Source: Candidatus Uhrbacteria bacterium (lineage in GTDB: Bacteria > Patescibacteriota > Patescibacteriia > UBA9934 > CAZDDW01). From it: a DNA stretch of 43,676 nt. The notes beneath the pieces are model-generated. The model was not told the origin of the DNA. It ran no database searches and worked only from the letters and a program-made list of their open reading frames with translations. Positions 5,574-42,630 of this stretch are shown piece by piece. The stretch is taken from positions 1 to 43,676 of the forward strand of contig JBDRNK010000087.1 in NCBI GenBank assembly GCA_043811105.1, in the 5' to 3' direction. Made by a program: the position numbers and the translations under genes. Position 1 is the stretch's first letter. Every line of letters starts with the position of its first letter.

Positions 5574-5583
5574 GTGGAGAAGC

Positions 5584-5651
<68 letters not shown>

Positions 5652-6132: not shown

Positions 6133-6173
<41 letters not shown>

Positions 6174-6397
6174 ACCGGTTGTTCTGCCAAGGGCATTGCC
6201 GGGTAGCTACGTTCGGTTTGGATAAGCGCTGAAAGCATATAAGCGCGAAGCCGATCCCAAGATTAACTTTCATTATGAGATCCCTCCGAGATGAGGAGGT
6301 TGATAGGCTCTAGGTGTAAGCGTGGTAACACGTTCAGCCGAGGAGTACTAATAGATCCAGACTCTACAATTACTTAATAAGAATGTTTCGTTCTAGA

Positions 6398-6641: not shown

Positions 6642-6772
6642 GAATTTACTGATTGTTACGAATTACGAATGTAACGGAATGCCTTAAGCCTTCTATTTTA
6701 AGATCCCCCGGATGTTAGTTCGGGGGATCTTCGTTGAGTTGCTGGTGGGTGAGGTGAGATCACCAGCTGGAT

Positions 6773-29273: not shown

Positions 29274-30137
29274 ATGGAAAAGATTAAAAGAACAAACACC
29301 CTCCTCATCGTGCCAGTAAATGATGAAGAGGCTTACACGATTGCTGAGCTTGGTGATGCGATCAAGATGCAAGTGCATCGCTCCAAGCAACCACATGGTG
29401 CTCGACTTGAAGACGAGTCTGGGGTGTTGGATTTGGTTAAGAAATCAGATTGCTCAACAGTAATTGTTGTCGAAATGCCAGGACCTGAAATCGAAGAGCA
29501 AATTCGCAATCTTGGCAAAGAATTAATTATCATTGATCATCATCGTTACACAGATCTAGATCGCGCCCACGACTCTGAAGGTCATGTGTTGCCTAGTTCG
29601 TTAGAGCAGTTTTTGAATTTGGTCGAACTGTCAGATCAGGAACTGGATGATCTTGGATACAATGCAAAAATGGTTCGAGCAACAGGGTTGTGGGATGAGG
29701 GCTATATCTGGGCCTTGATCGAGAACGGATATTCAACTAAAGAAATAGAACAGTTTGAAGAGCACAAGGAAATAATTGAGAACAAACTAGGGTTGCCAAC
29801 AGAAACTGAAGAATCGCGCCAAGCTGCTGAGCGAGCTTGGAAAGATCGTCAAGAATGGAACGGTTTTCAAATAATGCATTCTGCTGATGACCAAGCGCAT
29901 ATTCGATCTTTGGTTTCACGAATGGCTGCTAAGCATTACAAGAAGCGCACGCCAGTAATTATTTCTGAACGGGCGGGCAAACGCATTTACGTTCAAGAGT
30001 CAGACCGGGCTGTTGATCTGTACAAAGAATTCGGCGGCTTCATGTATGGGGGAGATTGGAATTGGGGGTATGATAATAATGAGAGAAAAAAACAACTGAA
30101 GTTGGATGAAGTAAAAAAAATTTTGAATAAAAAATAG
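29274..30137 (+). CDS. hypothetical protein with a DHH-like motif
   Basis: LIIIDHHRY. C-terminal FGGFMYGGDWNWGYDN motif shared with 31185-31285. Confidence 0.55.
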   Translation: MEKIKRTNTLLIVPVNDEEAYTIAELGDAIKMQVHRSKQPHGARLEDESGVLDLVKKSDCSTVIVVEMPGPEIEEQIRNLGKELIIIDHHRYTDLDRAHDSEGHVLPSSLEQFLNLVELSDQELDDLGYNAKMVRATGLWDEGYIWALIENGYSTKEIEQFEEHKEIIENKLGLPTETEESRQAAERAWKDRQEWNGFQIMHSADDQAHIRSLVSRMAAKHYKKRTPVIISERAGKRIYVQESDRAVDLYKEFGGFMYGGDWNWGYDNNERKKQLKLDEVKKILNKK

Positions 30138-31394: not shown

Positions 31395-31878
31395 AGATGA
31401 TTCAAAAATAATCTTGTGAGAGAGCCCTGGCCGGGGATAAGGCAAAGAGTAGAGAGTAGAAAGTAGAAGGTAGAAAGGAATAAGCTTATATAAGCTCCTT
31501 TCTACTCTCTACTATCTACTTTCTACCCAAAACGGATGTGTAGATCTCTTTCCGAGGTAAACAGGTCTGTTTATTTTTTTCACTCAGAAACCTGGGGGGA
31601 GAGTCCCCCTTCGCTCCTGAAGGAGCTACGGGGGATAGATAAACCGTTACCAGTAGGGCTTATGCCTGAGAGGTGCGGTGAGCTTAACAGGCTTAATCAG
31701 ACCAGGCTTAGGCTTGCTCTATAGTCATAGTTAAGCTCACGAGCTTATATCTGCTGCTTGCAGCGTTCACTAAGTTCACATCACTCCCAGATTTCTGAGT
31801 GAAAACTCAGCTTAAGGCCCTGTAATATTCTAGTAAACTAGATATAGGACAAAGGTGGTTCGAATCCACTCGGGGCCA
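31395..31878 (+). ncRNA. unclassified ~480-nt structured RNA with a tRNA-like 3' end (tmRNA-like, not confirmed)
   Basis: Own promoter and no credible ORF. Long-range pairs: cactcagaaa (31580) with tttctgagtg (31793); gtgagcttaac (31676) with gttaagctcac (31730). 3' end: GGAC-aaa-ggtgg-TTCGAAT-ccact-cggggcc-A. A candidate 5' acceptor strand ggccctg lies at 31816. No G3:U70. Confidence 0.45.
31447..31527 (+). repeat. REP-like long hairpin R4 (GTAGA-repeat arms) inserted in the ncRNA
   Basis: gagtagagagtagaaagtagaaggtagaaagga ... tcctttctactctctactatctactttctac. A second copy lies at 42555-42630. Confidence 0.75.
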
Positions 31879-31955
31879 GCAAAGAAAATACATCACCAGC
31901 GTTGTTGCTGGTGGTGAAGATCTATAAAAACATGTATTGCTGAAGGAGATGTTTG

Positions 31956-33290
31956 ATGACAGCGACACCGGGTTACGCAAGCGCTCTGGGAGCAGCGCCG
32001 CATTCGACGGCGATGTTCAACCTGTTGACCTTCAACCAGGTCGTGGCCACCCACGGCGGAACAGAGGATTGGATCGAGGCCTGCAAGGCGATTGGCTTCG
32101 ACGAGATGCCACCGCTGGCCGGGCGTGAGGTCCCCAAGGGCCTCTGTCGGGTCTGTGGTCCGAGGGTCGACGTCGAGCAGATCGCTGACGGCGAAGGTCT
32201 GTGGCAGGACGGTGAGTTGCCCGACCTGATCGACGCCGCAGACGAGTACCTGCTCGATCACGGCTACGACATCAACGGCAACCTGATCGACGACCTGGAC
32301 GACGACGAGGACGACGACGAGTTCGACCAGGACCTGGAAGTCCAGGAGAGGTTCGAACTGGCCGAGTTGAAGTCTGCGGAAGATCATCTGCGGACGATCG
32401 CCTATAACGACTTCGGTCACGGTGAGGTGACCTGCTGGAAGGCGTATTATCGCACCCAGTATCGGCCGAGCGTCATCGCCGCACAGTCCAAGGCGCAAGT
32501 GGCCAAGCAGTGGTCGTTTGACGTGCCCTATGGCTGGTACGGCATGTTCGATCGAGACGAGATCGAGCGACCCGAGACCGACGGTCTCGAAGATGTCGAA
32601 GCCTGGATGGCCTGGCACGAAGCAGGTCTGCCCTTCGACGTCCTGTTCGAGCAGGAGATGCTCGAGTTCAACGAGCCCTTCGTTGACGTGTCCGATCCGG
32701 ACTTCGACCATGACTGGGACTGGCACTACCGTGACCGGTCCATGGCCTGGGAGGATTTCGACGAGTACGATGATGACGACGATGATCTGGACGACTGGGA
32801 TCGCATGGACGACGACTGGGGTGATCCCTACGCCGACGGCCTCAACGATGAGTGGTCGATCGACGACAACTCCTGGGAGGACAATGATCCTTACGGCTTC
32901 TGGGACGAGGAAGACGGCTGGAACGAGTACGACATCCGTCGCTCCTGGGGTTTTGGCAAAGGCAGTGGTCGTGAACAGCTTTCACTGGAGTACTTCCGGC
33001 AGAAGCACCCTCGGGTTGAGGATCTCCAGGAAGAGTTCGAGCTGGAGGAGATCAGGGTCAGGGTTCGTGAGAGCCACGACTCGTATCGCCTCTGGCAGGA
33101 AGAGTACGGGAAAGATAACCAGGCCTGGAATAGCTGGAAGCGCTATCGGTGTGCACAACGCTGGCCAGTGGTTCACTCGGTTCCATGGGGTGAGGCTACT
33201 CGACATTTGGCCGCAATCCCAATCAGTCTGGAAGACGACTTCCAGGATCTGCTTCTCGAGGATCTGATGGATCTCGAGGACGCCGCCTAG
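31956..33290 (+). CDS. highly acidic Asp/Glu/Trp-rich protein (hypothetical)
   Basis: 444 aa. gaaggag SD 7 nt before ATG 31956. Runs such as DDLDDDEDDDEFD and DDDDDDLDDWDRMDDDWGDPY. Confidence 0.65.
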   Translation: MTATPGYASALGAAPHSTAMFNLLTFNQVVATHGGTEDWIEACKAIGFDEMPPLAGREVPKGLCRVCGPRVDVEQIADGEGLWQDGELPDLIDAADEYLLDHGYDINGNLIDDLDDDEDDDEFDQDLEVQERFELAELKSAEDHLRTIAYNDFGHGEVTCWKAYYRTQYRPSVIAAQSKAQVAKQWSFDVPYGWYGMFDRDEIERPETDGLEDVEAWMAWHEAGLPFDVLFEQEMLEFNEPFVDVSDPDFDHDWDWHYRDRSMAWEDFDEYDDDDDDLDDWDRMDDDWGDPYADGLNDEWSIDDNSWEDNDPYGFWDEEDGWNEYDIRRSWGFGKGSGREQLSLEYFRQKHPRVEDLQEEFELEEIRVRVRESHDSYRLWQEEYGKDNQAWNSWKRYRCAQRWPVVHSVPWGEATRHLAAIPISLEDDFQDLLLEDLMDLEDAA

Positions 33291-33310
33291 TTCATTCAAC
33301 TCAACAAAGT

Positions 33311-33438
33311 CCAGCAGTCCTTGCTGGCACGTGCCTCGAACACTGTTCGAGGCCTCCACCCTGTACCAGACGTCTCTAACGAGCCGTCGGTACAGGGCCC
33401 TACCAGAGTTTCTGAAGTAATTCAGAAACTCTGGTGGG
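33311..33438 (+). repeat. island junction J1: hairpins Ha, Hb, Hc and a short inverted-core element
   Basis: Ha 33311-33327, Hb 33333-33353, Hc 33359-33397 (ccctgTAcc/ggTAcaggg variant). ccctaccagagtttctgaa-gtaa-ttcagaaactctggtggg at 33398-33438. Confidence 0.75.
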
Positions 33439-33479
33439 AGTAGTTTCCAGATTTTTAAAATGTCCAACAAGGAGGATTC

Positions 33480-34364
33480 ATGGGCAACATTCGTTTCTTT
33501 ATCTGTTCCAACCCGGACACCCTCAAGGAGTGTCTTGAGGGAAATCCTTCAGCCACAGTCGAGGCTGAGTATGGCAACCGTGTGGTCGAAGGGTCGCTGT
33601 TGACTCTGGCCCATCATGGGCTACGGTCGAACAACCCGGCGCCTTGTCTGGCCGAGAACGGCTGTGGTCAGGGGGTCGACCTGGTCGGCTTGAGCCATTT
33701 CGACCTGGACACCCTGGGTGGCTGCATGGCCATCCTGGGCAACAAGTCCGAGGCTGATGGCTTCTGGAACCTGGCTGCGTTCGTGGACGTCAATGGCGCC
33801 CACAAGCTTGGTCAGTCCAAGGCCAGTGTCGAGGACGTCGTCCGGCTCTACGCCTTCTGGGCCTGGAGCAAGGATCACCGGCTGTTCGCCCCACGGGGTG
33901 GTGCGGTACTCGACGTGACCACGGAGATCAAGGCAGCTGCGGCTGCGATCATGGCTATCCTGAACGGTGACCATGATCTGATCGAGGCTGGGATGGAGTT
34001 CCAGGGTGAGGAGACTCACCTGAACAGCTCCTCTTTCGTCGAATTGGTCGACGGGGTGGTCGTCCGGATTGTTCGGAATCAGACGGACTTCGTCAACCAC
34101 CTCTACGTCACTCCTGACGGTCAGGTGGCCCAGGCAGTGGTTTCGCTCAACCTGGGACATGGCGGCTGCACGATCAGTCTGGCTGATCCGGTCGAGGGTG
34201 TGTCCTGTCGGGAGATCGTCCAGTCCGTCTGGACGGACACCGACGACGATGGCAATCTTTTGGCTGGTGGCCATGATGGTATCGCTGGTTCGCCACGCGG
34301 CCAACGGCTCGGTCTGGATGACCTGGTCGCCGTTCGCGACGTCATGGTCAAGGCCCTGACCTGA
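33480..34364 (+). CDS. divergent DHH/DHHA1-like phosphoesterase (tentative)
   Basis: SHFDLDTLGG (motif I-like DxD), NGDHDL (DHH-like), AGGHDGIAGSPRG (GGGH..AAG-like). aaggagg SD. Confidence 0.6.
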   Translation: MGNIRFFICSNPDTLKECLEGNPSATVEAEYGNRVVEGSLLTLAHHGLRSNNPAPCLAENGCGQGVDLVGLSHFDLDTLGGCMAILGNKSEADGFWNLAAFVDVNGAHKLGQSKASVEDVVRLYAFWAWSKDHRLFAPRGGAVLDVTTEIKAAAAAIMAILNGDHDLIEAGMEFQGEETHLNSSSFVELVDGVVVRIVRNQTDFVNHLYVTPDGQVAQAVVSLNLGHGGCTISLADPVEGVSCREIVQSVWTDTDDDGNLLAGGHDGIAGSPRGQRLGLDDLVAVRDVMVKALT

Positions 34365-34376
34365 TCCTTTCAAAGC

Positions 34377-34580
34377 CCAGCAGTCCTTGCTGGCACGTGC
34401 CTCGAACCCTGTTCGAGGCTCCACCAGAGTTATTCAAACAAGTATCATGTCTCAAGTAACCCACCTTCGCCAAGGCTTCGGTGGGCAGGCAAGTATCAAG
34501 TTAGGAAGATATCGCGATATTTTCCATCCTTGATCCTTGAACCTTGTTACTTGAAACTTTCCTTGGATACCCCTGGTGGG
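34377..34580 (+). repeat. island junction J2: Ha, Hb, empty Hc site, inverted-core element invaded by host repeats
   Basis: Ha 34377-34393, Hb 34399-34419. ctccacc|agag has no Hc. ccaccagag (34421) pairs with ccctggtggg (34571). The interior 34440-34557 consists of host-type caagt-arm and ccaccttcgccaaggcttcggtgggcagg repeats. Confidence 0.7.
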
Positions 34581-34602
34581 ATACAATCTAAACGGAGGAA
34601 AG

Positions 34603-34749
34603 ATGAGCAAGATCCTGTCTGTCTGTGTCGAAATCGTGATCTACTGCATGGCATTTGCCATGTATCAGATCTACGAGCGCCGCTACTCGTGCGGCAACCT
34701 GAACAACACCTTGGGCAAGGTCGCCAGCTCCACAGGCTACCACCCGTAG
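34603..34749 (+). CDS. 48-aa small hydrophobic protein
   Basis: ggagga SD 5 nt upstream. MSKILSVCVEIVIYCMAFAMYQIYERRYSCGNLNNTLGKVASSTGYHP. Below the ORF-track cutoff. Confidence 0.5.
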   Translation: MSKILSVCVEIVIYCMAFAMYQIYERRYSCGNLNNTLGKVASSTGYHP

Positions 34750-34767
34750 GAATTGAAAGGAGCCGAC

Positions 34768-35037
34768 GTGAGTATTCGTCAACAGTTGGTTTGCTTCGGG
34801 ATCGTGGCAAAAGTCATGTGCACGATCGTTGGTCTTTGCATCTTGGGTACAGTGCTGCTCGTAGCCAACGTGGCTGCCGTTGCTATCTGGATCGGATGTC
34901 TGCTGGATTGGGACTTTCCGATCTTGTACGCCTTTGTCCCAGCTTTGGTAATGTTTCTGGACGTCTGTGTCAGTCTACTGATTTCCAGGCTCTGGCCAGG
35001 GTTCAGTGACTGGCTTTGCCTCGGGTTCAGGAAGTAG
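34768..35037 (+). CDS. small membrane protein (two or three TM)
   Basis: aaggag SD 5 nt before GTG 34768. Hydrophobic throughout. Confidence 0.55.
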   Translation: MSIRQQLVCFGIVAKVMCTIVGLCILGTVLLVANVAAVAIWIGCLLDWDFPILYAFVPALVMFLDVCVSLLISRLWPGFSDWLCLGFRK

Positions 35038-35214
35038 AAGAAGTATATTGCGTGGGCTGGTTCTTACCAGCTCTAACTGCGAACGCCGCGTATGTTCGCA
35101 GACCCTCTCTAGTTTAGAAATAGCGATCCTAATGAAATTCGAATGGCATTCGAATGATCCGAATATTTGTAAATTAAAGAGGGGGAAACAATTTTCAAAC
35201 AACAAGGAGTGGTC

Positions 35215-35298
35215 ATGACCATCGATTTGATCAGAATCTACAACCGCGTCTATTACCGGATTTTCCGGATTCGACGCTGGTTTCGATCCGCGAAGTAA
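35215..35298 (+). CDS. 27-aa highly basic peptide (speculative)
   Basis: aaggag SD 4 nt before the ATG. MTIDLIRIYNRVYYRIFRIRRWFRSAK. Confidence 0.25.
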   Translation: MTIDLIRIYNRVYYRIFRIRRWFRSAK

Positions 35299-35336
35299 AC
35301 CAAGCCGTTAACGCAGAAGTAGAGGAGGAAGTTGAA

Positions 35337-35699
35337 ATGAGCACGAAAATGCTGATTGCTGCCGTGGTGGTGGTGTTGAACTTCTGGCTGGTGTTCGGCT
35401 GTGTCATGCCAGTGCCGGAGATGGTCTCTGACATCTGTGCCATGATGCTTCGAGCCGAAGCCTGGACGATCGGGCTGTGCCTGGTTTTCAGCGTCTTGTT
35501 CTTCTACGATCAGATGGTTCTGGTCGTGGAGCAACACAAGCTTCGCTGTGGTCAGGTCTGTCGGATCTGGTCCAGAGTGACGGTGCCAGACCCCAAGGAG
35601 CTGGGTGTTCGCGAAATGGTTTGCGAGGCCTGGATCATCAGCATGGAAAAGGTTGTACACGCACAACAGCGCGTGCACCGTTTCCTACAAAACGTGTAG
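35337..35699 (+). CDS. hypothetical membrane protein
   Basis: gaggagga SD. 120 aa with N-terminal TM helices. Confidence 0.55.
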   Translation: MSTKMLIAAVVVVLNFWLVFGCVMPVPEMVSDICAMMLRAEAWTIGLCLVFSVLFFYDQMVLVVEQHKLRCGQVCRIWSRVTVPDPKELGVREMVCEAWIISMEKVVHAQQRVHRFLQNV

Positions 35700-35743
35700 C
35701 TTACACGTACGACACCGGAGTCGCACTCGCGATTCCAAATTTA

Positions 35744-35890
35744 CCCTGAACCAGACATCTCTAACGAGCCGTCGGTTCAGGGCCCCACCTGAGATGTTAA
35801 GAGATTTTTCTAACGGGGTTTATCCCCGGTCTGACTGTCAGACGCCAGATGAACTGGCTAAGAAAAATTTCTTAAATCCTCTGGTAGGGG
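35744..35890 (+). repeat. island junction J3: Hc plus element II (copy 1)
   Basis: Hc 35744-35782. Element II 35783-35890: closing stem ttaagagatttttct/agaaaaatttcttaa around three small hairpins (gggg..cccc, tctga..tcaga, gccag..ctggc). Confidence 0.75.
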
Positions 35891-35898
35891 ATCAAAAA

Positions 35899-35925
35899 AC
35901 CGCCATGTAGGCGGTGGTTCGAATC
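35899..35925. terminator. hairpin between convergent genes, overlapping a T-arm-like 13-mer
   Basis: aaaaaaccgcc-atgt-aggcggt. ggtggttcgaatc (35913-35925) is identical to 31854-31866. Confidence 0.45.
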
Positions 35926-35936
35926 TTTACAAATAT

Positions 35937-36287
35937 TTATCGTAACTCTAGCTGGACATGTTGAGCTATCTGTTGTAACTGTGATTCGAGTCGTTCATAT
36001 TTAGATTGCAAAGCAATAAGTTCAGTCTCGAGTTTATTGTGTAAACTAATGAAACCGTCGACTTGGGTAATGATTTCAGATTTTGCTTCATTTACTACTT
36101 CCTTAATTTCAGTACCCAGCTCACCTTTTAAGTTAGAGATTTCAAAAGAGAGATCATCCTTCGAGGTCATGTGAGATTCTAACTCATGCAGATCATCCTT
36201 TGAAGCCGCATTATCTTTAATAAATTCAACAGTATCAAGTACTTGTTGTAGAGCGTTATCTTGATCCATACAAATGTAATTTAACAT
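35937..36287 (-). CDS. coiled-coil protein, AT-rich (paralog of 39116-39613)
   Basis: Start chosen at MLNYICMDQ by homology with the paralog. Shared C-terminus LETEL.ALQSKYERLESQLQQIAQH.QLELR. The line 36001-36060 hand-counts to 35% GC. Confidence 0.6.
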   Translation of the reverse strand: MLNYICMDQDNALQQVLDTVEFIKDNAASKDDLHELESHMTSKDDLSFEISNLKGELGTEIKEVVNEAKSEIITQVDGFISLHNKLETELIALQSKYERLESQLQQIAQHVQLELR

Positions 36288-36310
36288 ATTGTCGAGTAGA
36301 TGACAATGTT

Positions 36311-36409
36311 CTACCAGAGATGAATATTTCTTACCCAACTTGTTGGGGTTTTAAATCAAGACGGGAATAAATTCCCTGAGAAGTATTAAGAAATATCGTT
36401 TCTGGTGGG
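36311..36409 (+). repeat. island element I, copy 1 (structured leader candidate)
   Basis: ctaccagag...tctggtggg bracket. Inner hairpins cccaa-cttg-ttggg and gggaat-aa-attccc. 33 nt upstream of ATG 36443. Confidence 0.7.
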
Positions 36410-36442
36410 AGAAAAATTACATTCAATAAGAAAGGAAACGAG

Positions 36443-36700
36443 ATGACTGAGAAACAGCAGGAAAAGATGCTGACCGAGCTGAACTGGCTCAAGCGCTGGT
36501 TGGTTCGCCAGCCGCGCTGGTTGCAGATGGGCTTCTTGCTCATCTCAGGCCTTTTGCTCGGAGCTGACCTGATTCTGGTCGACCCGATTCCGCTGATCGA
36601 TGAAGCCTTGCTCATCTGGTCCACTTGGACCGGGTTCAAGGTGGCGGTCAACGATGGTCCACGGTATCGGCGTTTGGAAGCGCCGCAGGAGGAGTCATGA
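36443..36700 (+). CDS. small membrane protein, DUF1232/YkvA-like (tentative); paralog of 39855-40115
   Basis: 85 aa. ADLILVDPIPLIDEALLIWS resembles the DUF1232 D.IPD.IP..G..DD motif. Confidence 0.6.
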   Translation: MTEKQQEKMLTELNWLKRWLVRQPRWLQMGFLLISGLLLGADLILVDPIPLIDEALLIWSTWTGFKVAVNDGPRYRRLEAPQEES

Positions 36701-36939
36701 AGTATTGGCTCTTCGAACAGATTCCGCGGGTCTGGGTAACGGTCGTTCTGATCGCTGTCTGGTCAATTCTGGCCACGGCCACGCTAGCTGCCTGGCCCTT
36801 ACCCACCAGTTATGATGTCTGGGTCGGGCGTGGTCTTGGCTGTATACTCCTGACCTCCATTCCGGCCTTGTTGACCGAGCCGATTATTTTCGCACTCTGG
36901 TGGCCAGGCAAGCCCTTCGAGCTTCGGCCACGAAGCTGA
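36697..36939 (+). CDS. small membrane protein
   Basis: ATGA overlap with the upstream stop. aggaggag SD. 80 aa. The C-terminal KPFELRPRS is encoded by the shared repeat. Confidence 0.55.
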   Translation: MKYWLFEQIPRVWVTVVLIAVWSILATATLAAWPLPTSYDVWVGRGLGCILLTSIPALLTEPIIFALWWPGKPFELRPRS

Positions 36940-37119
36940 ACCTTCCCCACTCGCCCGGAACCATTCACGGTTCCGGGCCCTACCCTGAACCAGACGTCTC
37001 TAGCGAGTCGTCGGTTCAGGGCCCTACCAGAGATGAATATTTCTTACCCAACTTGTTGGGGTCAAGACGGGAACAAGTTCCCTGAGAAATATTATTTCTG
37101 GTGGGGGACGAAGTTTTTT
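36911..37119 (+). repeat. island junction J5: He, Hf, Hc, element I (copy 2)
   Basis: He gcttcg-gcca-cgaagc 36921-36936. Hf 36954-36977. Hc 36983-37021. Element I 37024-37105. 36983-37119 is identical to 37903-38039. Confidence 0.8.
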
Positions 37120-37185
37120 ACAACACGGCTTTACAGAGCCAAGGTCCGTCGAACGGGCCGAGCAATAAAGAAAGATAGGAAAGAC

Positions 37186-37491
37186 ATGCCATATTTGCAA
37201 TTGGTACATACCACGGGTAGCGACTTCATCATGGGATGGCACGGTTTTGGTGACACATCAATGCCTGACGGTGTGAATTTGCACTGTCTGTGCGATACGG
37301 GCACCACAATCGTATTTCCAAGTCTGGTCAGTGTGGCCGGTCTTGCCCTGACCGTGAGCAACATCAAAGCTTTGCTCAAGGCTTGGTTGAACGAGCAGGA
37401 AAGCCTGCCGGTTCATGTCTGCCCGAAGTGTGGTATCGATGGTAGTTCTGACAAGGATAAGGTCTTGGCTTGGTTACAAGCCCTTCGGTAA
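37186..37491 (+). CDS. hypothetical protein
   Basis: 101 aa from ATG 37186. Contains CPKC. The upstream part of the track ORF is element I sequence. Confidence 0.45.
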   Translation: MPYLQLVHTTGSDFIMGWHGFGDTSMPDGVNLHCLCDTGTTIVFPSLVSVAGLALTVSNIKALLKAWLNEQESLPVHVCPKCGIDGSSDKDKVLAWLQALR

Positions 37492-37593
37492 TTTAACAGT
37501 CCACCAGGGAAGATGGGCTTTCGCCCAATCCTGGCGTCCTTAGTCGGACGTAGAAGATGGACCCTGTCCACTAGGGCAGGAATTCGGAAAGAT

Positions 37594-37893
37594 ATGAAGA
37601 GATTTCTGAAGACGGTATCGTCCTACACGTTCACGGCCGCAGTCTACACGGTTCTGGCAGTACTGGTCCTGGCTATCGTGATTCCGATCGTGACCTTTGT
37701 TGGTGGACATGTCTGCCTGGTCGTTTGCGCCCTGGTCTGGGAGTTTTTTCCAGCCTGGGATCTGGGAGTGATCGGTGTGATCGGCGCTGCCACCTTCATC
37801 TTCGATGCAGTATTTCTACCATTCCTGATTCCGATCTTTCTGATCGTAGCAACCTGGCTGCTCACCCCGAGCAAGAAGCGGCAATGTTGCTAA
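37594..37893 (+). CDS. small polytopic membrane protein
   Basis: 99 aa from ATG 37594 (alternative start 37513). Hydrophobic throughout and ends in CC. Confidence 0.5.
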   Translation: MKRFLKTVSSYTFTAAVYTVLAVLVLAIVIPIVTFVGGHVCLVVCALVWEFFPAWDLGVIGVIGAATFIFDAVFLPFLIPIFLIVATWLLTPSKKRQCC

Positions 37894-37902
37894 ACTCTTT
37901 CG

Positions 37903-38039
37903 CCCTGAACCAGACGTCTCTAGCGAGTCGTCGGTTCAGGGCCCTACCAGAGATGAATATTTCTTACCCAACTTGTTGGGGTCAAGACGGGAACAAGTTC
38001 CCTGAGAAATATTATTTCTGGTGGGGGACGAAGTTTTTT
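37903..38039 (+). repeat. island junction J6: Hc plus element I (copy 3)
   Basis: 137-bp perfect copy of 36983-37119. Confidence 0.85.
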
Positions 38040-38064
38040 CAAACAACAAATGAAGGAGAGAACG

Positions 38065-38469
38065 ATGTTGAATACAGAAAGAACCTTGCGCGATTTCGTC
38101 TTTCTGGTGTACCAGTTGGCAGTGAACGATAACGATCAGTTGCCGCCAACACCGTGGACCGACATCAAGATCACGCCGGCCAAGTACGCTGTTCTGCTGC
38201 GTCAGGGCTGGCAACGGGCTCAGAAGGGTCGAATGCAGATGTGTCTGCGCTTTGATCTTCCGGATGGGTCTGTGGCCTATCTCGGTAACGGTGACCCTCA
38301 GGGTCATAACAACGATATCTGGCACGGTCGGATCGAGGGTCCGATCGCCGAAAGCCTCGGCTGCCGCTGGATCGAGTTTGGTGTCATGGCCGATGCCGAA
38401 GTCGACACCAAGGGTCTGTTGGCTGCAACCAAACGTAGCCGGCCCTTCGAGCTTCGGCCACGAAGCTGA
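38065..38469 (+). CDS. hypothetical protein
   Basis: gaaggag SD 6 nt before ATG 38065. 134 aa. The C-terminal RPFELRPRS is encoded by the shared repeat. Confidence 0.55.
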   Translation: MLNTERTLRDFVFLVYQLAVNDNDQLPPTPWTDIKITPAKYAVLLRQGWQRAQKGRMQMCLRFDLPDGSVAYLGNGDPQGHNNDIWHGRIEGPIAESLGCRWIEFGVMADAEVDTKGLLAATKRSRPFELRPRS

Positions 38470-38615
38470 ACCTTCCCCACTCGCCCGGAACCATTCACGG
38501 TTCCGGGCCCTACCAGAGTTGTTCAATAATTTTTCTAACGGATCTCTGATCCGGTTCTGAATTCGAACGCCATCAGAGATGGCTAAGAAGAACTTCTGAA
38601 CATATCTGGTAGGGG
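38441..38615 (+). repeat. island junction J7: He, Hf, empty Hc site, element II variant
   Basis: 38442-38514 is identical to 36912-36984. gggccctacc|agag has no Hc. Element 38510-38615 is bracketed by ctaccagag / atctggtagggg. Confidence 0.8.
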
Positions 38616-38640
38616 ACAATTACAAACAGAGGAGGTACAA

Positions 38641-38883
38641 ATGTACCGCGTGATCATTGCGATTTTTTGGGCCATGGTGGCCTTTGGAATGTTCTGGGGT
38701 TTTGTTTTCGGCCACCTGCACGTGGTCGGATTCATCGAGTGTCTGATTCGTCAGGACTTCAGTTCGGATCCAGGTTACTTGATGAGCATCGTGGCGATCT
38801 TGACCGTACTGCTCGACATCTTTGCATTCCTCGCTTTCATACTTGGAATGCACTGCCGCATCTTTCTGTGGTGCCGCAGTTGA
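38641..38883 (+). CDS. small membrane protein
   Basis: gaggagg SD. 80 aa with two hydrophobic helices. Confidence 0.55.
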   Translation: MYRVIIAIFWAMVAFGMFWGFVFGHLHVVGFIECLIRQDFSSDPGYLMSIVAILTVLLDIFAFLAFILGMHCRIFLWCRS

Positions 38884-38890
38884 AATATTT

Positions 38891-39071
38891 CACTCGCCCG
38901 GAACCATTCACGGTTCCGGGCCCCACCCTGAACCAGACGTCTCTAACGAGTCGTCGGTTCAGGGCCCCACCTGAGATGTTAAGAGATTTTTCTAACGGGG
39001 TTTATCCCCGGTTTGTAAGTCAGACGCCAGATAAACTGGCTAAGAAAAACAGCTTAACACATCAGGTTGGG
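38891..39071 (+). repeat. island junction J8: Hf, Hc, element II (copy 2)
   Basis: Hf 38897-38920, Hc 38926-38964, element II 38965-39071 (closely similar to 35783-35890 over its first ~50 nt). Confidence 0.8.
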
Positions 39072-39115
39072 TCAATCAAAAAACCGCTTTGTCAGCAGTT
39101 TTGTTCTTAAAAGGA

Positions 39116-39613
39116 TTATCGCAGTTCCAATTGAATATGTTGAGCTATCTGTTGTAATTGCGATTCAAGACGTTCGTACTTGGATTGAAGAGCCACAAGT
39201 TCAGTTTCAAGTTTGTTGTGTAGATTGATAAAGCCATCGATTTGAGTGACTATTTCAGATTTTGCACCAGAAATTATTTGTTCAACATCGGCTTTGACTA
39301 CTGCGTTATCTTTGACAAATTCAACTGTTTCTTGCACCCCAGCCATATCCTCTCTGAGAGAACTAACGTCTGTTTTTACTCCAGACATATCTTCTTTGAG
39401 AGAACCAACGTCTGTTTTAAGAGAACCAACATCTGTTTTTACCCCAGCCATATCCTCTTTAAGGGAGCTGACATCTGTTTTAAGAGAACCAACATCTGTT
39501 CGAACTGAACCAACCGCCACTTCCAATCCTTTGATTGCTTCCCGGTTTGAGGTGGTGGTATCTAGAATTTTTTCAAGTAGTGATTGTTGATCCATACAAA
39601 AGTAATTTAACAT
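39116..39613 (-). CDS. coiled-coil protein with an internal 21-nt tandem repeat expansion (paralog of 35937-36287)
   Basis: 165 aa. Heptad-like repeats DVGSLKT/DVSSLKE/DMAGVKT. Same N- and C-termini as the paralog. Confidence 0.65.
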   Translation of the reverse strand: MLNYFCMDQQSLLEKILDTTTSNREAIKGLEVAVGSVRTDVGSLKTDVSSLKEDMAGVKTDVGSLKTDVGSLKEDMSGVKTDVSSLREDMAGVQETVEFVKDNAVVKADVEQIISGAKSEIVTQIDGFINLHNKLETELVALQSKYERLESQLQQIAQHIQLELR

Positions 39614-39636
39614 ATTGTCGAGTAGATGACAATGTT

Positions 39637-39818
39637 CTACCAGAGATTAGTATTTCTTACCCAATTTACCTGGCCGCCGAAGCTTTAGCGAAGGCGGGTT
39701 GGGGTTGTGATGGGAACGACAAACTTTAGTTTGTCAAATGACAGACTAACGTCTGTCAGTCCCTACAAGACGGGAATAAATTCCCTGAGAAGTATTAAGA
39801 AATATAATTTCTGGTGGG
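39637..39818 (+). repeat. island element I, copy 4, interrupted by host REP-like repeats
   Basis: Same ends as copy 1. About 100 nt are inserted (39668-39767), containing cctggccgccgaagctttagcgaaggcgggttgggg and tgacagactaacgtctgtcagtccctac. Confidence 0.75.
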
Positions 39819-39854
39819 AGAAAAGGTTTTACAATCAATACGAAAGGGAACAAA

Positions 39855-40115
39855 ATGACTGAGAAACAGCAAGAGCAAATGCTGACTGAGCTGAACTGGC
39901 TCAAGCGCTGGTTGATTCGTCAGCCTCGCTGGTTGCAGGTGAGCTTCTTGTTCATCTCAGCCGCGCTGTTCGGTGTCGACATGATCGCGCTCGACCCGCT
40001 GCCCTTCATCGACGAAGCCATTCTGGCCTGGTCCACCTGGACCGGGTTCAAGGTGGCGGTCAACGACGGTCCGCGGTATCGGCGCTTGGATGCACCCGAG
40101 TCCAAATCTACCTAA
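39855..40115 (+). CDS. small membrane protein, DUF1232/YkvA-like (tentative)
   Basis: 86 aa. Closely similar to the 36443-36700 product (MTEKQQE.MLTELNWLKRWL.RQPRWLQ...). Confidence 0.6.
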   Translation: MTEKQQEQMLTELNWLKRWLIRQPRWLQVSFLFISAALFGVDMIALDPLPFIDEAILAWSTWTGFKVAVNDGPRYRRLDAPESKST

Positions 40116-40141
40116 ACCTCTCAAACATCTGAGGAGAAAAA

Positions 40142-40441
40142 ATGCAGACGGTTCTGGTAATATTGATGTTGATGGCTATGATTCTGGGCGGAGTGGCTAC
40201 TGCCCTTCGTATCTGGACTAAGAGCCAATGGACTGGTCGTCTGGCACTAGCCAGCCTGGTCAGTTTGATTCTGGGAACGGCCTGGGCCATTGGTTCTGGC
40301 CACTGGGTAATGGTGATCATGGAGCCGGTGATGTGGTTCCTGACCCTGGCCAGTGTCTGGCTGTTCAGCTACAGCCTTTGGCATCTGAACAATCCGGTCA
40401 AGCTGGCCTATGCGCGGTTGCGGTTGCGACTGCACAACTGA
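40142..40441 (+). CDS. small polytopic membrane protein
   Basis: gaggag SD. 99 aa with three hydrophobic helices. Confidence 0.55.
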   Translation: MQTVLVILMLMAMILGGVATALRIWTKSQWTGRLALASLVSLILGTAWAIGSGHWVMVIMEPVMWFLTLASVWLFSYSLWHLNNPVKLAYARLRLRLHN

Positions 40442-40449
40442 ATATCTTG

Positions 40450-40608
40450 CCCCGGAACCTATCGTGGTTCCGGGGCCCTACCCTGAACCAGACGTCTCTA
40501 ACGAGCCGTCGGTTCCGGGCCCCACTTAAGCACAGCAGTTTGATGAATATCGAAACTCTCTCTCAATATTCATTAAACCAGCAATGCTGTGCTTAGGTGG
40601 GGTTTTTT
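40450..40608 (+). repeat. island junction J10 / right end: Hf variant, hybrid Hc, terminal hairpin plus T-run
   Basis: ccccggaacc-tatcgt-ggttccgggg 40450-40475. Hc with an Hf-type 3' arm at 40481-40519. cccacttaagcacagca...tgctgtgcttaggtgggg followed by TTTTTT (40603-40608). Confidence 0.7.
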
Positions 40609-40643
40609 GTTTTATCTGACTTTATGTTAAACTGGTTTCAGTT

Positions 40644-42560
40644 ATGTGTGGAATCGTTGGCTATATAGGTAAAAAACAGGCCCTGCCGATCTTAATTGAT
40701 GGGTTAAAGCGTTTGGAATACCGTGGTTATGATTCGGCTGGGGTGGCGTTGTTGGGTGAGGGGGGTTGTCAGATTATTAAGAGTCCGGGGAAGATAGTAG
40801 GATTAGAAGAGAAAGTCTCAAGTTTCAAGTCTCAAGTCTCAAGTGCTGGAATCGCTCATACTCGCTGGGCGACTCATGGGCCTCCGACTGAGGCCAATGC
40901 TCATCCGCATACTGATTGCTCTGGCAAAATTGCCTTAGTTCATAACGGAATTGTTGAGAACTATCAGGAATTGAAACAAGAATTACAGGAGAAGGGACAT
41001 CAGTTTCGTTCAGAAACGGATACTGAAGTGTTGGTGCATTTGATTGAAGATTGTTTAAATAATGTAGCGGAAGGCTTTAGCCTTCCATGTCAGCAAAATG
41101 GAACCCTCCCACCTTCGCCAAGGCTTCGGCGGGCAGGAAAGGGTTCCTCTACATTAGAAATGGCAACCAGAAAGGCATTAGAACAAGTGCGCGGCACTTA
41201 CGGTATTGCTGTAGTTTCATCTGATCATCCAGATCAAATCGTGATTGCTCGCATGGGCAGCCCGATTGTTATTGGTGTGGGCACTGATGATTTTTTTGTT
41301 GCTTCAGATGCTTCAGCTTTGTTAAGTCATACCCGCAATGTAATTTATCTTGACGATGGCGAGATGTGTGTTTTACGACCGGACGGTTATTCGATTAAGA
41401 CTTTGGGTAATCGATCAGTGGCTAAAGAACCAGAAGTTATTGAGTGGTCAGCTGAAGATGTTAAAAAAGGTGGACATCCGCATTTCATGAAAAAGGAAAT
41501 GATGGAACAGCCAAAAGTTTTGGTTGATTCTATTCGCGGTCGTTTAAAACCAAAAGATGGAAAAGCCGTGCTTGGTGGTTTAAGCGATGTTGCCGATCGT
41601 CTGCGTCAAATTGATCGACTAATTATTGTTGCCTGCGGTAGTGCCTACTATTCCGGCCTGGTCGGCGAGTATATGTTGGAAGAATATGCTGGTATTCCAG
41701 TGGAAGTAGATCTGGCTTCAGAGTTTCGTTATCGCAAACCGATTATTACAGATCGCACAGCCGTGCTTGCAGTTAGTCAATCCGGAGAAACCGCAGACAC
41801 ACTAGCAGCGATCCGTGAGGCAAAAGAAAAAGGTGCTTTAACCTTGGGAATCGTTAATACGGTTGGATCGACCATAGCTCGGGAAACCGATGCCGGTATT
41901 TACAATCATGCCGGCCCGGAAATTGGAGTGGCTTCAACTAAGGCTTTTTTATCGCAAGCAACAGTCTTTGCTTTATTAACCATGTTTCTTGGTCGACAGC
42001 GATCAATGTCAATGGTCATGGGTAAGCGTATAGCTGATGAGATTCAGATGCTTCCAGACAAGTTGCAATCAATCATTAACCAGTTTGATCAGATCTCGCT
42101 TCTGGCTCAGAAATACAAAGACATGCAAAATTGTTTGTACTTGGGACGAAAATACTGTAGTCCAATTGCTTACGAAGGAGCTTTGAAACTTAAAGAGATT
42201 TCTTATATTCACGCTGAAGGTTATGCAGCTGGAGAAATGAAACACGGTCCGATCGCTTTGATTGATTCAAACTTTGTTTCCGTTGTGCTATGTCCAAAAG
42301 ACTCGGTTTATGAAAAAACTATATCTAACATCGAAGAACTTAAGGCTCGTGGTGGTTCGATCATCGCCGTGACAACTGAAGGCAACGATTCGATTAAACA
42401 AGTCGCAGATGATATAATCTATATACCAAAAACTTTAGAAATGTTAACTCCAATTTTGGCTGTGGTTCCGTTGCAAATTTTTGCTTACGCAATTGCTACA
42501 GCTCGTGGTTATGATCCGGACATGCCCAGGAATCTGGCTAAAGCCGTGACCGTGGAGTAG
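40644..42560 (+). CDS. glmS: glutamine--fructose-6-phosphate aminotransferase
   Basis: MCGIVGYIG N-terminal nucleophile. GIAHTRWATHG. Two SIS domains. C-terminal ...AKAVTVE. Confidence 0.95.
   Translation: MCGIVGYIGKKQALPILIDGLKRLEYRGYDSAGVALLGEGGCQIIKSPGKIVGLEEKVSSFKSQVSSAGIAHTRWATHGPPTEANAHPHTDCSGKIALVHNGIVENYQELKQELQEKGHQFRSETDTEVLVHLIEDCLNNVAEGFSLPCQQNGTLPPSPRLRRAGKGSSTLEMATRKALEQVRGTYGIAVVSSDHPDQIVIARMGSPIVIGVGTDDFFVASDASALLSHTRNVIYLDDGEMCVLRPDGYSIKTLGNRSVAKEPEVIEWSAEDVKKGGHPHFMKKEMMEQPKVLVDSIRGRLKPKDGKAVLGGLSDVADRLRQIDRLIIVACGSAYYSGLVGEYMLEEYAGIPVEVDLASEFRYRKPIITDRTAVLAVSQSGETADTLAAIREAKEKGALTLGIVNTVGSTIARETDAGIYNHAGPEIGVASTKAFLSQATVFALLTMFLGRQRSMSMVMGKRIADEIQMLPDKLQSIINQFDQISLLAQKYKDMQNCLYLGRKYCSPIAYEGALKLKEISYIHAEGYAAGEMKHGPIALIDSNFVSVVLCPKDSVYEKTISNIEELKARGGSIIAVTTEGNDSIKQVADDIIYIPKTLEMLTPILAVVPLQIFAYAIATARGYDPDMPRNLAKAVTVE
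41064..41153 (+). repeat. 90-nt nested REP-like insertion (R3 inside R2), in frame within glmS
   Basis: gtagcggaaggctttagccttccat gtcagc aaaatggaaccct[cccaccttcgccaaggcttcggcgggcagg]aaagggttcc tctaca. Encodes VAEGFSLPCQQNGTLPPSPRLRRAGKGSST. Confidence 0.75.
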
Positions 42561-42630
42561 AGAGTAGAAGGTAGAAGGTAGAAAGGAATAAATTTAACTC
42601 CTTTCTACTCTCTACTTTCTACCTTCTACT
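42555..42630 (+). repeat. REP-like long hairpin R4 filling the glmS to HD-gene spacer
   Basis: gagtagagagtagaaggtagaaggtagaaagga...tcctttctactctctactttctaccttctac. Its first TAG is the glmS stop, and the ATG of the next gene follows at 42631. Confidence 0.8.

What the first reader, a model, noticed from the sequence alone, without database searches (positions are those of the whole stretch)
33398..39818. An 11-nt inverted core (CCCTACCAGAG ... CTCTGGTGGG) brackets otherwise unrelated inserts, with mixed halves
Nine elements share these termini but have different interiors.
- A 41-nt perfect hairpin at 33398.
- Element I at 36311, 37024, 37944 and 39637.
- Element II at 35783 and 38965.
- A variant at 38510.
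- A host-repeat-filled copy at 34421.

The left neighbour of the core can be Hc, Hf, Hb or the coiled-coil gene upstream region. Copy 35783-35890 combines a cccacctgag-type 5' end with a ctctggtagggg-type 3' end, whereas 38965-39071 pairs cccacctgagatg with catcaggttggg. This suggests exchange at or within the core. A related hairpin caccagc-gttgtt-gctggtg opens the island at 31894-31913, and gctggtggg...caccagc occurs at 6741-6767.
Basis: seen in the sequence. Interest (0 to 1): 0.7.

Follow-up and report, generated by a model that had tools for sequence, protein, structure and literature searches.

The report
Shared-stem modular hairpins between island genes
Between the small genes of a variable island in a Patescibacteria (candidate phyla radiation, CPR) genome sits a family of hairpin elements that share one conserved closing stem but carry interchangeable interiors, most likely mRNA "punctuation" hairpins that also act as points where gene cassettes and hairpin interiors are swapped.

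Summary
The window holds ten, not nine, co-oriented elements closed by one helix, here called P1 (5'-YYCYACCAGAG...YYCTGGTRGG-3'). The tenth (40520-40602) is the intrinsic terminator that ends the island. Homologues of two island proteins led to four or five more related CPR genomes with the same helix (29 copies tabulated in four genomes).

- **Minimal form.** It is a 40-42-nt hairpin. Larger forms are the same stem with other hairpin modules, including host-wide palindromic repeats, nested at the apex.
- **P1 is a genuine helix.** It is 91% paired, and 6 of 11 pairs show changes on both sides. In the minimal hairpins the 5' strand is invariant and the 3' strand drifts through G·U pairs that exist only on the gene-sense strand.
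- **Position.** Copies abut the preceding hairpin and lie 15-116 nt before the next start codon.
- **Interior exchange.** Between genomes, arms and flanks stay homologous while interiors are exchanged.

Best reading (0.55): REP/BIME-like (repetitive extragenic palindrome / mosaic element) or PeSL-like intercistronic RNA hairpins that also serve as recombination junctions. They are not known ribozymes, integron attC sites or classical MITEs. No function has been shown. Novelty: new variant of a known kind. Interest 0.5.

The parts
31894..40613 (+). High-GC (about 49-60%, versus about 42% in the backbone) variable island of about 16 small ORFan genes. It lies between a tRNA-like sequence and glmS, and all P1 elements of the window lie inside it.
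   Evidence: Composition; no Pfam or PHROG families; syntenic but rearranged island upstream of glmS in L091 and L098.
33398..33438 (+). E1: minimal P1 hairpin (18 bp), 41 nt upstream of the start of the 294-aa gene.
   Evidence: (68 bits on +, 47.6 on -).
34419..34581 (+). E2: P1 frame with a 141-nt branched interior that contains host-backbone hairpins. The same unit occurs twice in L098 at other genes.
35783..35890 (+). E3: Element II (P1, P2 and a junction of three hairpins) at the end of a + operon. The left arm is the variant type and the right arm the consensus type, giving two mismatches.
36309..36410 (+). E4: Element I (P1, P2 and two hairpins), 32 nt upstream of the 85-aa gene H.
   Evidence: Folding energy is -40.0 kcal/mol on + and -26.2 on -.
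37022..37106 (+). E5: Element I, preceded by hairpins Hb and Hc.
   Evidence: (repeat family D7).
37942..38026 (+). E6: Element I, identical to E5. At the orthologous site L091 carries a different interior.
38508..38615 (+). E7: Element II variant with compensatory changes in P2 and in two apical hairpins, 25 nt before a start codon.
38965..39071 (+). E8: Element II. Position 8 of P1 is compensated (U-A).
39635..39818 (+). E9: Element I with two nested hairpin insertions. One is a host hairpin of the type that carries a GTAGGG tag.
40520..40613 (+). A P1 variant closes a long hairpin followed by TTTTTTGTTTT, forming an intrinsic terminator before glmS.
   Evidence: Orthologues in L091 and L098 carry compensatory changes.
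33359..33397 (+). Hc hairpin copy 1 (CCCTGTACC...GGTACAGGG). It abuts E1 with no spacer, and the stem has an A/T to T/A compensatory change relative to the other copies.
   Evidence: (family D1).
35744..35782 (+). Hc copy 2, abutting E3.
36983..37021 (+). Hc copy 3, abutting E5.
37903..37941 (+). Hc copy 4, abutting E6.
38926..38964 (+). Hc copy 5, abutting E8.
40481..40519 (+). Hc copy 6, abutting E10.
36912..36984 (+). Ha/Hb module plus the GGGCCCTACC linker. It is 100% identical to 38442-38514 and overlaps the last 8 codons of an otherwise unrelated gene.
   Evidence: family D10.
38442..38514 (+). Second copy of the Ha/Hb module, here joined directly to E7.
   Evidence: family D10.
38896..38921 (+). 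Hb hairpin copy 3.
40451..40474 (+). Hb hairpin copy 4.
33311..33353 (+). Hf double hairpin, copy 1.
   Evidence: (family D15). Conserved in L091 at 25-93.
34377..34419 (+). Hf double hairpin, copy 2, abutting E2.

Best explanation
**What it is.** The '11-nt inverted core' is the two strands of one closing helix, P1, belonging to a lineage-specific family of modular intergenic stem-loops. The basic unit is a 40-42-nt hairpin (CYACCAGAG-UUUCUGA-loop-UCAGAAA-CUCUGGUGG). The larger 'elements' are the same stem with other hairpin modules nested at its apex: Element I, Element II, the E2 type, and palindromic repeats found across the host genome.

**How it most likely works on RNA.** The elements are co-transcribed with the island's small genes and fold in the mRNA sense strand. 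Each sits directly against the 3' hairpin of the preceding cistron (Hb, Hc, Hf, which resemble REPs carrying a GTAG tag). Each lies 15-116 nt upstream of the next Shine-Dalgarno sequence and start codon. The most likely role is intercistronic punctuation. That could mean a 5' hairpin that insulates or stabilises the downstream cistron, and possibly a site for a double-strand- or junction-specific endoribonuclease. The role would be analogous to the type III hammerheads at the same position in sister lineages. A copy followed by a U-run terminates the island.

**How it most likely works on DNA.** The conserved arms and adjacent hairpins are the junctions at which interiors and gene cassettes are exchanged between sites. 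This explains why identical arms bracket unrelated interiors.

**Shown versus inferred.**
- Shown: the family, its helix, strand asymmetry, position, nesting, and interior exchange between genomes.
- Inferred: transcription, RNA processing or stabilisation, and the recombination mechanism.
For: - **Enrichment and single orientation.**
- **Same helix in related genomes.** It occurs in L091, L094, L098 and L102, and more weakly in L101. These contigs were reached through homologues of two island proteins.
- **P1 is a helix.** Across 27 distinct arm pairs, 90.9% of cells pair (34-61% when the partner is slid). Six of 11 pairs change on both sides, and 0 of 500 shuffles reach the covariation score.
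- **Terminator orthologues covary.** CCCCACUUAAG/CUUAGGUGGGG, CCCUACCAAAG/CUUUGGUAGGG and CUCCGCCUAAG/CUUUGGUGGGG.
- **Strand asymmetry in the minimal hairpins.** They are 95% paired and the 5' strand is invariant. There are 19 wobble cells at 7 positions, against 7 unpaired cells at three positions. All eight fold better on the + strand.
- **Position.** Of 29 copies, 26 follow a stable hairpin with a gap of 0-2 nt. Twenty-three are followed by a Shine-Dalgarno sequence and start codon at 15-116 nt. Three carry a U-run, and three precede a bidirectional terminator.
- **Interior exchange.** Arms and flanks stay conserved while interiors differ. The same interior types occur at non-orthologous sites in different genomes.
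- **Nesting of mobile palindromes.** The 'gagtagag' palindrome is a clean insertion/deletion difference after glmS and also sits inside P1 frames in L091, L094 and L102.
- **Hammerheads at the equivalent position** in L001, L006 and L009.
Against: - No expression data exist, so transcription of the left arm is not shown. At E4 and E9 a weak promoter-like match (ATGACA-17-AATATT) would start transcription inside the element.
- Within P1 itself the asymmetry is modest: 27 wobble cells against 10 A·C cells at position 10, in the 'CCCTGG' frame type.
- Ten of the 29 copies, most of them carrying nested repeats, fold as well or better on the - strand.
- The invariant 5' arm and the GTAG-like tag (CCCTAC is the reverse complement of GTAGGG) fit recognition at the DNA level just as well.
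- The arms (9-11 nt) are short for RecA-type homologous exchange.
- No RNase or recombinase partner was identified.
Confidence: 0.55

Rival explanations
1. The elements are non-autonomous mobile DNA of the MITE or REPIN type. The P1 arms would be terminal inverted repeats, or inverted GTAG-type tags, recognised on DNA by a transposase encoded elsewhere, for example a RAYT (REP-associated tyrosine transposase) or Y1 enzyme. Any RNA folding would be a by-product.
For: - Whole P1-bounded units (the E2 type, the Ld type, and the frame carrying the palindrome) occur at non-orthologous sites in different genomes.
- Arm sequence is conserved beyond what pairing requires, and the 5' strand is invariant.
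- CCCTAC is the reverse complement of GTAGGG. Ten of the 19 GTAGGG sites in the window lie next to a strong hairpin, including sites in the backbone.
- Other small palindromes in this genome are demonstrably mobile.
Against: - No target-site duplication flanks any copy.
- All 29 copies have one orientation and a fixed position relative to the ribosome-binding site and the preceding hairpin.
- There are no copies in the 35 kb of backbone.
- At orthologous sites the arms persist while the interior changes, rather than the whole element being present or absent.
- No transposase is encoded in the window.
- Half of the arms read CCACC/GGTGG rather than CTAC/GTAG.
Confidence: 0.2
2. The island is an integron-like cassette array. 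P1 elements would be attC-like folded single-stranded DNA recombination sites, with conserved outer boxes and a variable terminal structure, used by an unidentified recombinase to shuffle cassettes.
For: - The architecture resembles attC: imperfect inverted repeats with conserved ends, a variable and sometimes branched centre, and conserved small mismatches next to the outer helix in the frame type.
- The island is an array of small, co-oriented ORFan genes whose order differs between related genomes.
Against: - There is no RYYYAAC/GTTRRRY consensus.
- No integrase, attI site or any recombinase is encoded in the window or the fetched flanks.
- Breakpoints do not fall at one precise nucleotide.
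- The interior alone can be swapped while both flanks are kept, which single-site attC recombination does not produce.
- One member is plainly an RNA terminator.
Confidence: 0.07
3. The elements are independent RNA stems that merely share a GC-rich base, and the shared core reflects recent duplication only.
For: - P1 covaries and no inverted copies exist.
- Several copies within a genome are near-identical duplicates (families D7, D8 and D10).
Against: - The same core, with an invariant 5' strand, is kept in at least five genomes whose orthologous proteins are 66-84% identical.
- It persists around structurally unrelated interiors.
- It persists at orthologous sites whose interiors have been replaced.
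Confidence: 0.06
4. Elements I and II are self-cleaving ribozymes, either divergent members of known classes or a new class. They would replace the hammerheads seen in sister lineages.
For: - Type III hammerheads occupy the same pre-RBS position in related CPR islands.
- Elements I and II are multi-stem junctions with compensatory changes in their hairpins.
Against: - No ribozyme family matches at E <= 10 over 6.6 kb. The same scan does recover the L001 hammerheads, at 22-24 bits.
- Conservation lies in the closing stem, not in junction loops.
- A plain 42-nt hairpin substitutes for Elements I and II at orthologous sites.
Confidence: 0.04
5. The elements act on DNA as regulatory palindromes. 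They would be an operator for an island regulator, or a hairpin-type promoter recognised at the stem base, with transcription starting just downstream.
For: - The palindrome is conserved and nearly perfect, lies 15-116 nt upstream of start codons, and keeps its sequence.
- No sigma-70-like promoter is evident for most genes.
Against: - The distance between half-sites varies from 20 to 160 nt.
- Wobble-only drift on one strand argues for single-strand folding.
- Three copies sit at operon ends and three are terminators.
- No DNA-binding protein is encoded in the island.
Confidence: 0.04

Closest known systems
REP / BIME elements of enterobacteria and pseudomonads, and REPIN-RAYT systems
   Same: - Both are short, GC-rich imperfect palindromes in extragenic spacers.
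- Both are combined as mosaics of several hairpin types.
- Both carry a conserved GTAG-type tag next to the stem (Hb, Hc and the backbone hairpins).
- Both are co-transcribed with operons, where they can stabilise or terminate mRNA. This last point rests on established knowledge of REPs and on PMC2817692 and PMC3733652.
   Different: - P1 is a long-range closing helix around interiors of 20-160 nt.
- All copies are co-oriented, rather than alternating as in BIMEs.
- The position just before a ribosome-binding site is fixed.
- In the window the family is confined to one island.
- No RAYT was seen.
- Half of the arms lack GTAG.
PeSL (promoter-early stem-loop) cassettes of T4-type phage hyperplastic regions (PMC2839356, PMC4122927)
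   Same: - Both are repeated stem-loop cassettes between small ORFan genes in a hypervariable region.
- In both, insertion, deletion and replacement junctions between related genomes coincide with the repeats. This suggests they mediate modular shuffling.
   Different: - PeSLs are composite terminator-plus-early-promoter motifs in phage genomes.
- Here no promoter consensus is found.
- The host is a CPR chromosome with no phage genes.
- The interiors of the stem-loops are themselves exchanged.
Integron attC sites and cassette arrays
   Same: - Both have conserved inverted outer boxes and a variable central or terminal structure.
- Both occur in arrays of small co-oriented ORFan cassettes.
   Different: - There is no R-box consensus and no integrase or attI site.
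- One member is a transcription terminator.
- The interior can be swapped while both flanks are kept.
Co-transcribed MITEs such as Neisseria Correia elements and enterobacterial ERIC, and nested MITEs
   Same: - Both are units bounded by inverted repeats.
- Both fold into long hairpins in mRNA.
- Both can be nested.
- RNase III processing of Correia transcripts is known from the literature (stated from my own knowledge, not tested here).
   Different: - There is no target-site duplication.
- Copies have a single orientation.
- No whole-element presence/absence difference was seen at orthologous sites.
Type III hammerhead ribozymes in 5' UTRs of related CPR islands, and phage T7 intercistronic RNase III sites
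   Same: - The position matches: after the upstream cistron's hairpins and before the ribosome-binding site.
- Both would leave the downstream cistron starting with a stable hairpin.
   Different: - P1 elements have no hammerhead core and match no ribozyme family.
- Any cleavage would need a protein, and none is shown.

Membership tests
REP/BIME (REPIN-RAYT) | Short (about 20-40 nt) imperfect palindromes in extragenic DNA | tested here: met
   Hb (24-26 nt), Hc (39 nt), the backbone hairpins and the 40-42-nt minimal P1 fit this description. The larger P1 elements are composites.
REP/BIME (REPIN-RAYT) | Conserved GTAG (or CGTC) tetranucleotide at one end of the palindrome | tested here: inconclusive
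   Ten of the 19 GTAGGG sites abut a strong hairpin, and the P1 left arm CCCTACC overlaps that tag. However, 14 of 27 left arms read CCACC, and only 6 right arms read GTAG.
REP/BIME (REPIN-RAYT) | REPs in alternating orientation within mosaics, with copies in both orientations genome-wide | tested here: not met
   All 29 P1 copies in four genomes are on the gene-sense strand.
REP/BIME (REPIN-RAYT) | High copy number dispersed over the chromosome | tested here: not met
   The covariance model R1 finds P1 only inside the island and none in the other 35 kb of the window. The whole genome is not available.
REP/BIME (REPIN-RAYT) | Cognate RAYT (Y1 transposase) gene in the genome | not testable with these tools
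   None is present in the window or the fetched loci. No complete genome is accessible.
PeSL cassettes (T4-type phages) | Repeats lie between small ORFan genes of a hypervariable region, and junctions between related genomes coincide with them | tested here: met
PeSL cassettes (T4-type phages) | Composite of a sigma-70-type early promoter and a stem-loop terminator | tested here: not met
   No promoter-like site is consistently associated with the elements. Only weak 9/12 matches occur at E4 and E9. Only E10 has a U-run.
PeSL cassettes (T4-type phages) | Resident in a T4-type phage genome | tested here: not met
   The context is chromosomal (rRNA, ileS, glmS). There is no PHROG structural or replication gene and no phage DNA match.
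Integron attC | R''/R' boxes RYYYAAC ... GTTRRRY | tested here: not met
   The arms are YYCYACCAGAG ... YYCTGGTRGG.
Integron attC | Adjacent intI integrase with attI and the Pc promoter | tested here: not met
   No integrase or recombinase domain appears in the window or in the flanks of L091, L094 and L098.
Integron attC | Imperfect inverted repeat with variable central structure and extrahelical bases | tested here: inconclusive
   The variable centre is met. Conserved A·C and U·U/U·C mismatches sit next to P1 in the frame type. Their role is unknown.
MITE | Terminal inverted repeats flanked by a target-site duplication | tested here: not met
   Inverted arms are present, but no direct repeats flank any of the copies.
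MITE | Whole-element presence/absence at orthologous sites | tested here: not met
   At orthologous sites the arms persist and only the interior differs. The nested 'gagtagag' palindrome does show a filled versus an empty site.
Known RNA families, including self-cleaving ribozymes (Rfam 15) | Match to a curated covariance model | tested here: not met
   There is no relevant hit at gathering thresholds or at E <= 10. As a positive control, the hammerheads in L001 are found at 22-24 bits.
Intrinsic (Rho-independent) terminator | GC-rich hairpin immediately followed by a U-run | tested here: inconclusive
   The feature is met for E10 and its orthologues in L091, L098 and L103. It is not met for the other nine window copies.
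RNase III-type intercistronic processing site | About 20 bp or more of double-stranded RNA between cistrons, cleaved by RNase III | not testable with these tools
   The helices are long enough: 18 bp in the minimal form and about 25 bp of P1 plus P2 in Elements I and II. Cleavage cannot be tested, nor can the presence of rnc in the genome.

The most novel reading that the evidence does not exclude
The conserved base of P1 has an invariant 5' strand (CYACCAGAGUUUCUGA) and is always butted against the preceding hairpin. It could be the recognition site of a dedicated, still unidentified sequence- and structure-specific enzyme. Two versions are possible.
- An endoribonuclease cuts polycistronic island transcripts at the junction between the upstream hairpin and P1. 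This would be a protein-dependent counterpart of the hammerhead 'punctuation' used by sister CPR lineages.
- A hairpin-specific recombinase exchanges apical inserts and gene cassettes. This would be a REP-based analogue of integrons that lacks a classical integrase.
Probability: 0.15. Interest if true: 0.75.

Novelty: new variant of a known kind. Interest (0 to 1): 0.5.

Why it matters
CPR/Patescibacteria are uncultured and their gene regulation is almost unknown. This family shows several things.

- A clade of them organises a hypervariable island of small, mostly membrane-type ORFan genes with interchangeable hairpin modules.
- Sister lineages place hammerhead ribozymes at the same position.
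- The same short conserved stem marks the points where interiors and gene cassettes are reshuffled between genomes.

The result is a concrete, testable system for two open questions. One is how polycistronic transcripts are punctuated in CPR. The other is how small-gene islands diversify without recognisable integrases or transposases. It also supplies a covariance model and several loci for follow-up.

Tried and rejected
- **Known RNA families.** Rfam scans at gathering thresholds and at permissive E-values found no riboswitch, ribozyme or leader. A control on L001 shows that the scan does detect hammerheads.
- **Direct hammerhead core search.** None is present in the window. The only hits are in L001-L004, L006 and L009.
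- **Core in other collections.** All of the following were negative:
  - the GTDB genome collection;
  - viral contigs;
  - phage and plasmid records;
  - 80 metagenome loci around homologues of the 294-aa protein.

  That protein is therefore not linked to the core.
- **First metagenome scan.** The scan with the single protein found nothing.
- **Protein domains.** Pfam and PHROG searches on the island and backbone proteins found no integrase, transposase or RNase.
- **Promoters.** The promoter scan found no consistent promoter in or after the elements.
- **Hc as an insertion with a 9-nt target duplication (GGCCCYACC).** This holds in only 2-3 of 6 copies. It is better explained by the tag that follows both Hb and Hc, so I rejected it.
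- **tmRNA reading of 31540-31880.** There is no Rfam or ARAGORN support.
- **Similarity of the P1 5' strand to the 16S 3' tail (anti-Shine-Dalgarno).** I noted this from memory only. The 16S rRNA is not in the window, so I did not pursue it.

Full report
**Context**

The window is a stretch of a Patescibacteria/CPR-type chromosome. It carries:
- a 23S rRNA with a group I intron, a 5S rRNA and tRNA-Ala;
- ileS, split transketolase genes and glmS.

The finding lies in an island at 31894-40613. Its GC content is about 49-60%, against about 42% in the backbone. The island sits between a sub-threshold tRNA-like sequence (31816-31878, 25 bits) and glmS (40644-42560). It encodes about 16 small proteins, all but two on the + strand, and none matches a Pfam or PHROG family.

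**Check of the observation**

CCCTACCAGAG with up to 2 mismatches occurs 22 times in the window, against 6.5 +/- 2.5 in shuffles. Fifteen of these hits lie at 33398-39771. They are the left arms on the + strand, the right arms read on the - strand, and one site inside E9.

The nine elements exist as described. Each folds into a long closing stem around a simple loop or a junction of two or three hairpins. Folding z-scores range from -5.5 to -8.5.

I found a tenth member outside the stated coordinates, at 40520-40602. Its arms are CCCCACTTAAG...CTTAGGTGGGG, and it is followed by TTTTTTGTTTT. This is an intrinsic terminator at the end of the island.

**Relatives**

- The core is absent from species-representative genomes, viral contigs, phage and plasmid records.
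- It is also absent from 80 metagenome loci around homologues of the island's 294-aa protein.
- Homologues of two small island proteins, of 85 aa and 134 aa, exist in only a handful of contigs.
- Those contigs (L091, L094, L098, L102; L101 more weakly) carry the same helix in syntenic but rearranged islands.
- I tabulated 29 copies in four genomes.
- A covariance model of the minimal hairpin finds the family only in these genomes and, within the window, only inside the island.

**Anatomy**

The minimal form is a 40-42-nt hairpin present in all four tabulated genomes. Larger forms keep the same closing helix P1, and often the next helix UUUCUGAG/CUCGGA. They carry other modules at the apex:
- Element I (window four times, L091);
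- Element II (window three times, L098, L102);
- a 163-nt type (window E2, L098 twice);
- an 'Ld' type (L091, L098);
- a frame filled with an approximately 80-nt 'gagtagag' palindrome (L091, L094 three times, L102).

That palindrome is mobile. It sits at the glmS stop codon in the window (42552-42630), whereas the orthologous site in L091 is empty. Other hairpins nested in E2, E9 and Element II recur in the backbone, one of them as an in-frame insert in glmS. Many of the 'unrelated interiors' are therefore nested palindromic modules.

Position of the 29 copies:
- 26 begin 0-2 nt after a stable upstream hairpin;
- 23 are followed by a Shine-Dalgarno sequence and start codon at 15-116 nt;
- 3 carry a U-run before glmS;
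- 3 (Element II) precede a bidirectional terminator at a convergent gene junction.

**Helix or DNA repeat?**

*P1 across all copies.* On 27 distinct arm pairs, P1 is 90.9% paired, against 34-61% when the partner is slid by 1-3 columns. Six of 11 pairs change on both sides. None of 500 shuffles reaches the observed covariation score. The three orthologous terminators differ by compensatory changes.

*Minimal hairpins.* In the eight minimal hairpins the 5' strand is invariant. The 3' strand drifts almost only through U·G or G·U pairs: 19 wobble cells at 7 positions, against 7 unpaired cells at three positions. All eight fold better on the + strand. This points to folding of the sense strand, most simply as RNA.

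*Caveats.* In P1 itself there are 10 A·C cells in the frame type. Copies with nested repeats mostly fold as well or better on the - strand. No copy is inverted relative to the genes.

**Exchange at the core**

- Homology blocks between the window and L091 end inside P1 arms.
- After gene K, the left flank, left arm (11/11), right arm (8/11) and about 20 nt of right flank are homologous. The interior is not.
- Upstream of gene H, the window has Element I, L091 the Ld type and L098 the minimal hairpin. All three share the same right arm and 5' UTR.
- Identical modules are joined to different partners within the window. For example, a 73-nt Ha/Hb unit is 100% identical at 36912 and 38442 and even supplies the last 8 codons of two unrelated genes.

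The mechanism is not established.

**What it is most like**

Hb, Hc and several backbone hairpins look like REPs carrying a GTAG tag when read on the opposite strand. Ten of the 19 GTAGGG sites abut a hairpin, and the P1 left arm overlaps that tag. The mosaic of hairpins resembles BIMEs. The role as junctions between small ORFan genes resembles the PeSL cassettes of T4-type phages (PMC2839356, PMC4122927).

Defining features of each family fail:
- there is no alternating orientation and no RAYT;
- there is no promoter;
- there are no attC boxes and no integrase;
- there is no target-site duplication;
- there is no Rfam or ribozyme match (with a positive control).

In related CPR islands, type III hammerheads occupy the same position before the ribosome-binding site. 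This suggests a shared role in processing or insulating cistrons.

**Verdict**

This is a genuine, lineage-specific family of modular intercistronic hairpins whose conserved closing helix also marks recombination junctions. The anatomy, the helix, the strand bias, the nesting and the interior exchange between genomes are shown. Transcription, RNA processing or stabilisation, and the exchange mechanism are inferred.

Confidence in this reading is 0.55. The main rival, a REPIN- or MITE-like mobile DNA, stands at 0.2.

Noticed in passing
window 1950-6366: The 23S rRNA gene spans 4.4 kb, against a 2.9-kb model. It contains a group I intron (5697-6016) and a LAGLIDADG-like ORF (4361-4942) in a second insertion.
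   Followed up: no
window 41054-41180: glmS carries an in-frame insert of about 72 nt that is absent from the L091 orthologue. The insert contains the hairpin CCCACCTTCGCCAAGGCTTCGGCGGG, which is also nested in element E2. This is reminiscent of Rickettsia palindromic elements inside genes.
   Followed up: partly
window 42552-42630 and 31445-31531; L091 8265-8275: An approximately 80-nt 'gagtagag...' palindrome sits exactly at the glmS stop codon and supplies a new stop. The orthologous site in L091 is empty. The same palindrome is nested inside P1 frames in L091, L094 and L102.
   Followed up: yes
window 31816-31878 and 35913-35925: A sub-threshold tRNA-like sequence (25 bits, not called by ARAGORN) bounds the island. 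Its T-arm 13-mer GGTGGTTCGAATC (31854-31866) recurs after Element II at 35913-35925. This may be a remnant of an integration site.
   Followed up: partly
L001 about 9590-9650 and 11325-11375; L006 about 2760-2830; L009 about 1185-1255: Canonical type III hammerhead cores (CUGAUGA-stem-GAAA) lie upstream of ribosome-binding sites in related CPR islands. They score only 22-24 bits against Rfam Hammerhead_3, below its gathering cut-off.
   Followed up: partly
window 33480-34364: The 294-aa island protein has more than 800 CPR homologues and no Pfam domain. Its AlphaFold2 model (pLDDT 96) matches the DHH/DHHA1 phosphoesterase fold of NrnA, GdpP and RecJ in Foldseek. A second protein with a DHH motif is encoded at 29274-30137.
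   Followed up: partly
window 36912-36984 and 38442-38514: Two unrelated genes end with the same eight codons (...PFELRPRS*). A 73-nt hairpin module, 100% identical at both sites, overlaps their 3' ends.
   Followed up: partly
window 10894(+), 12213(+), 24239(-): REP-like units in the backbone have the form GTAGGGACC followed by the hairpin GACAGGCGTAAGCCTGTC. At 12213 the TAG of the tag is the stop codon of the upstream gene.
   Followed up: partly
L023 2200-13200: Another CPR island around a homologue of the 294-aa protein has 24 copies of the hairpin GCCCCATCGAACGATGGGG directly before ribosome-binding sites. Fragments of tRNA-like 3' halves lie between the genes.
   Followed up: no
window 37497-37594; L091 4775-4872: A structured spacer without P1 upstream of gene K (GUCCACCAGGGAAGAUGGGC...) is conserved at about 86% between the two genomes. 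Its nature is unknown.
   Followed up: no
window 12642-13217: A 191-aa ORF has a reverse-transcriptase domain (RVT_1). It may be part of a retroelement.
   Followed up: no
window 39347-39514: The coiled-coil gene on the - strand (39116-39613) contains tandem repeats of 21 nt (7 aa). Its paralogue at 35937-36269 lacks them.
   Followed up: no
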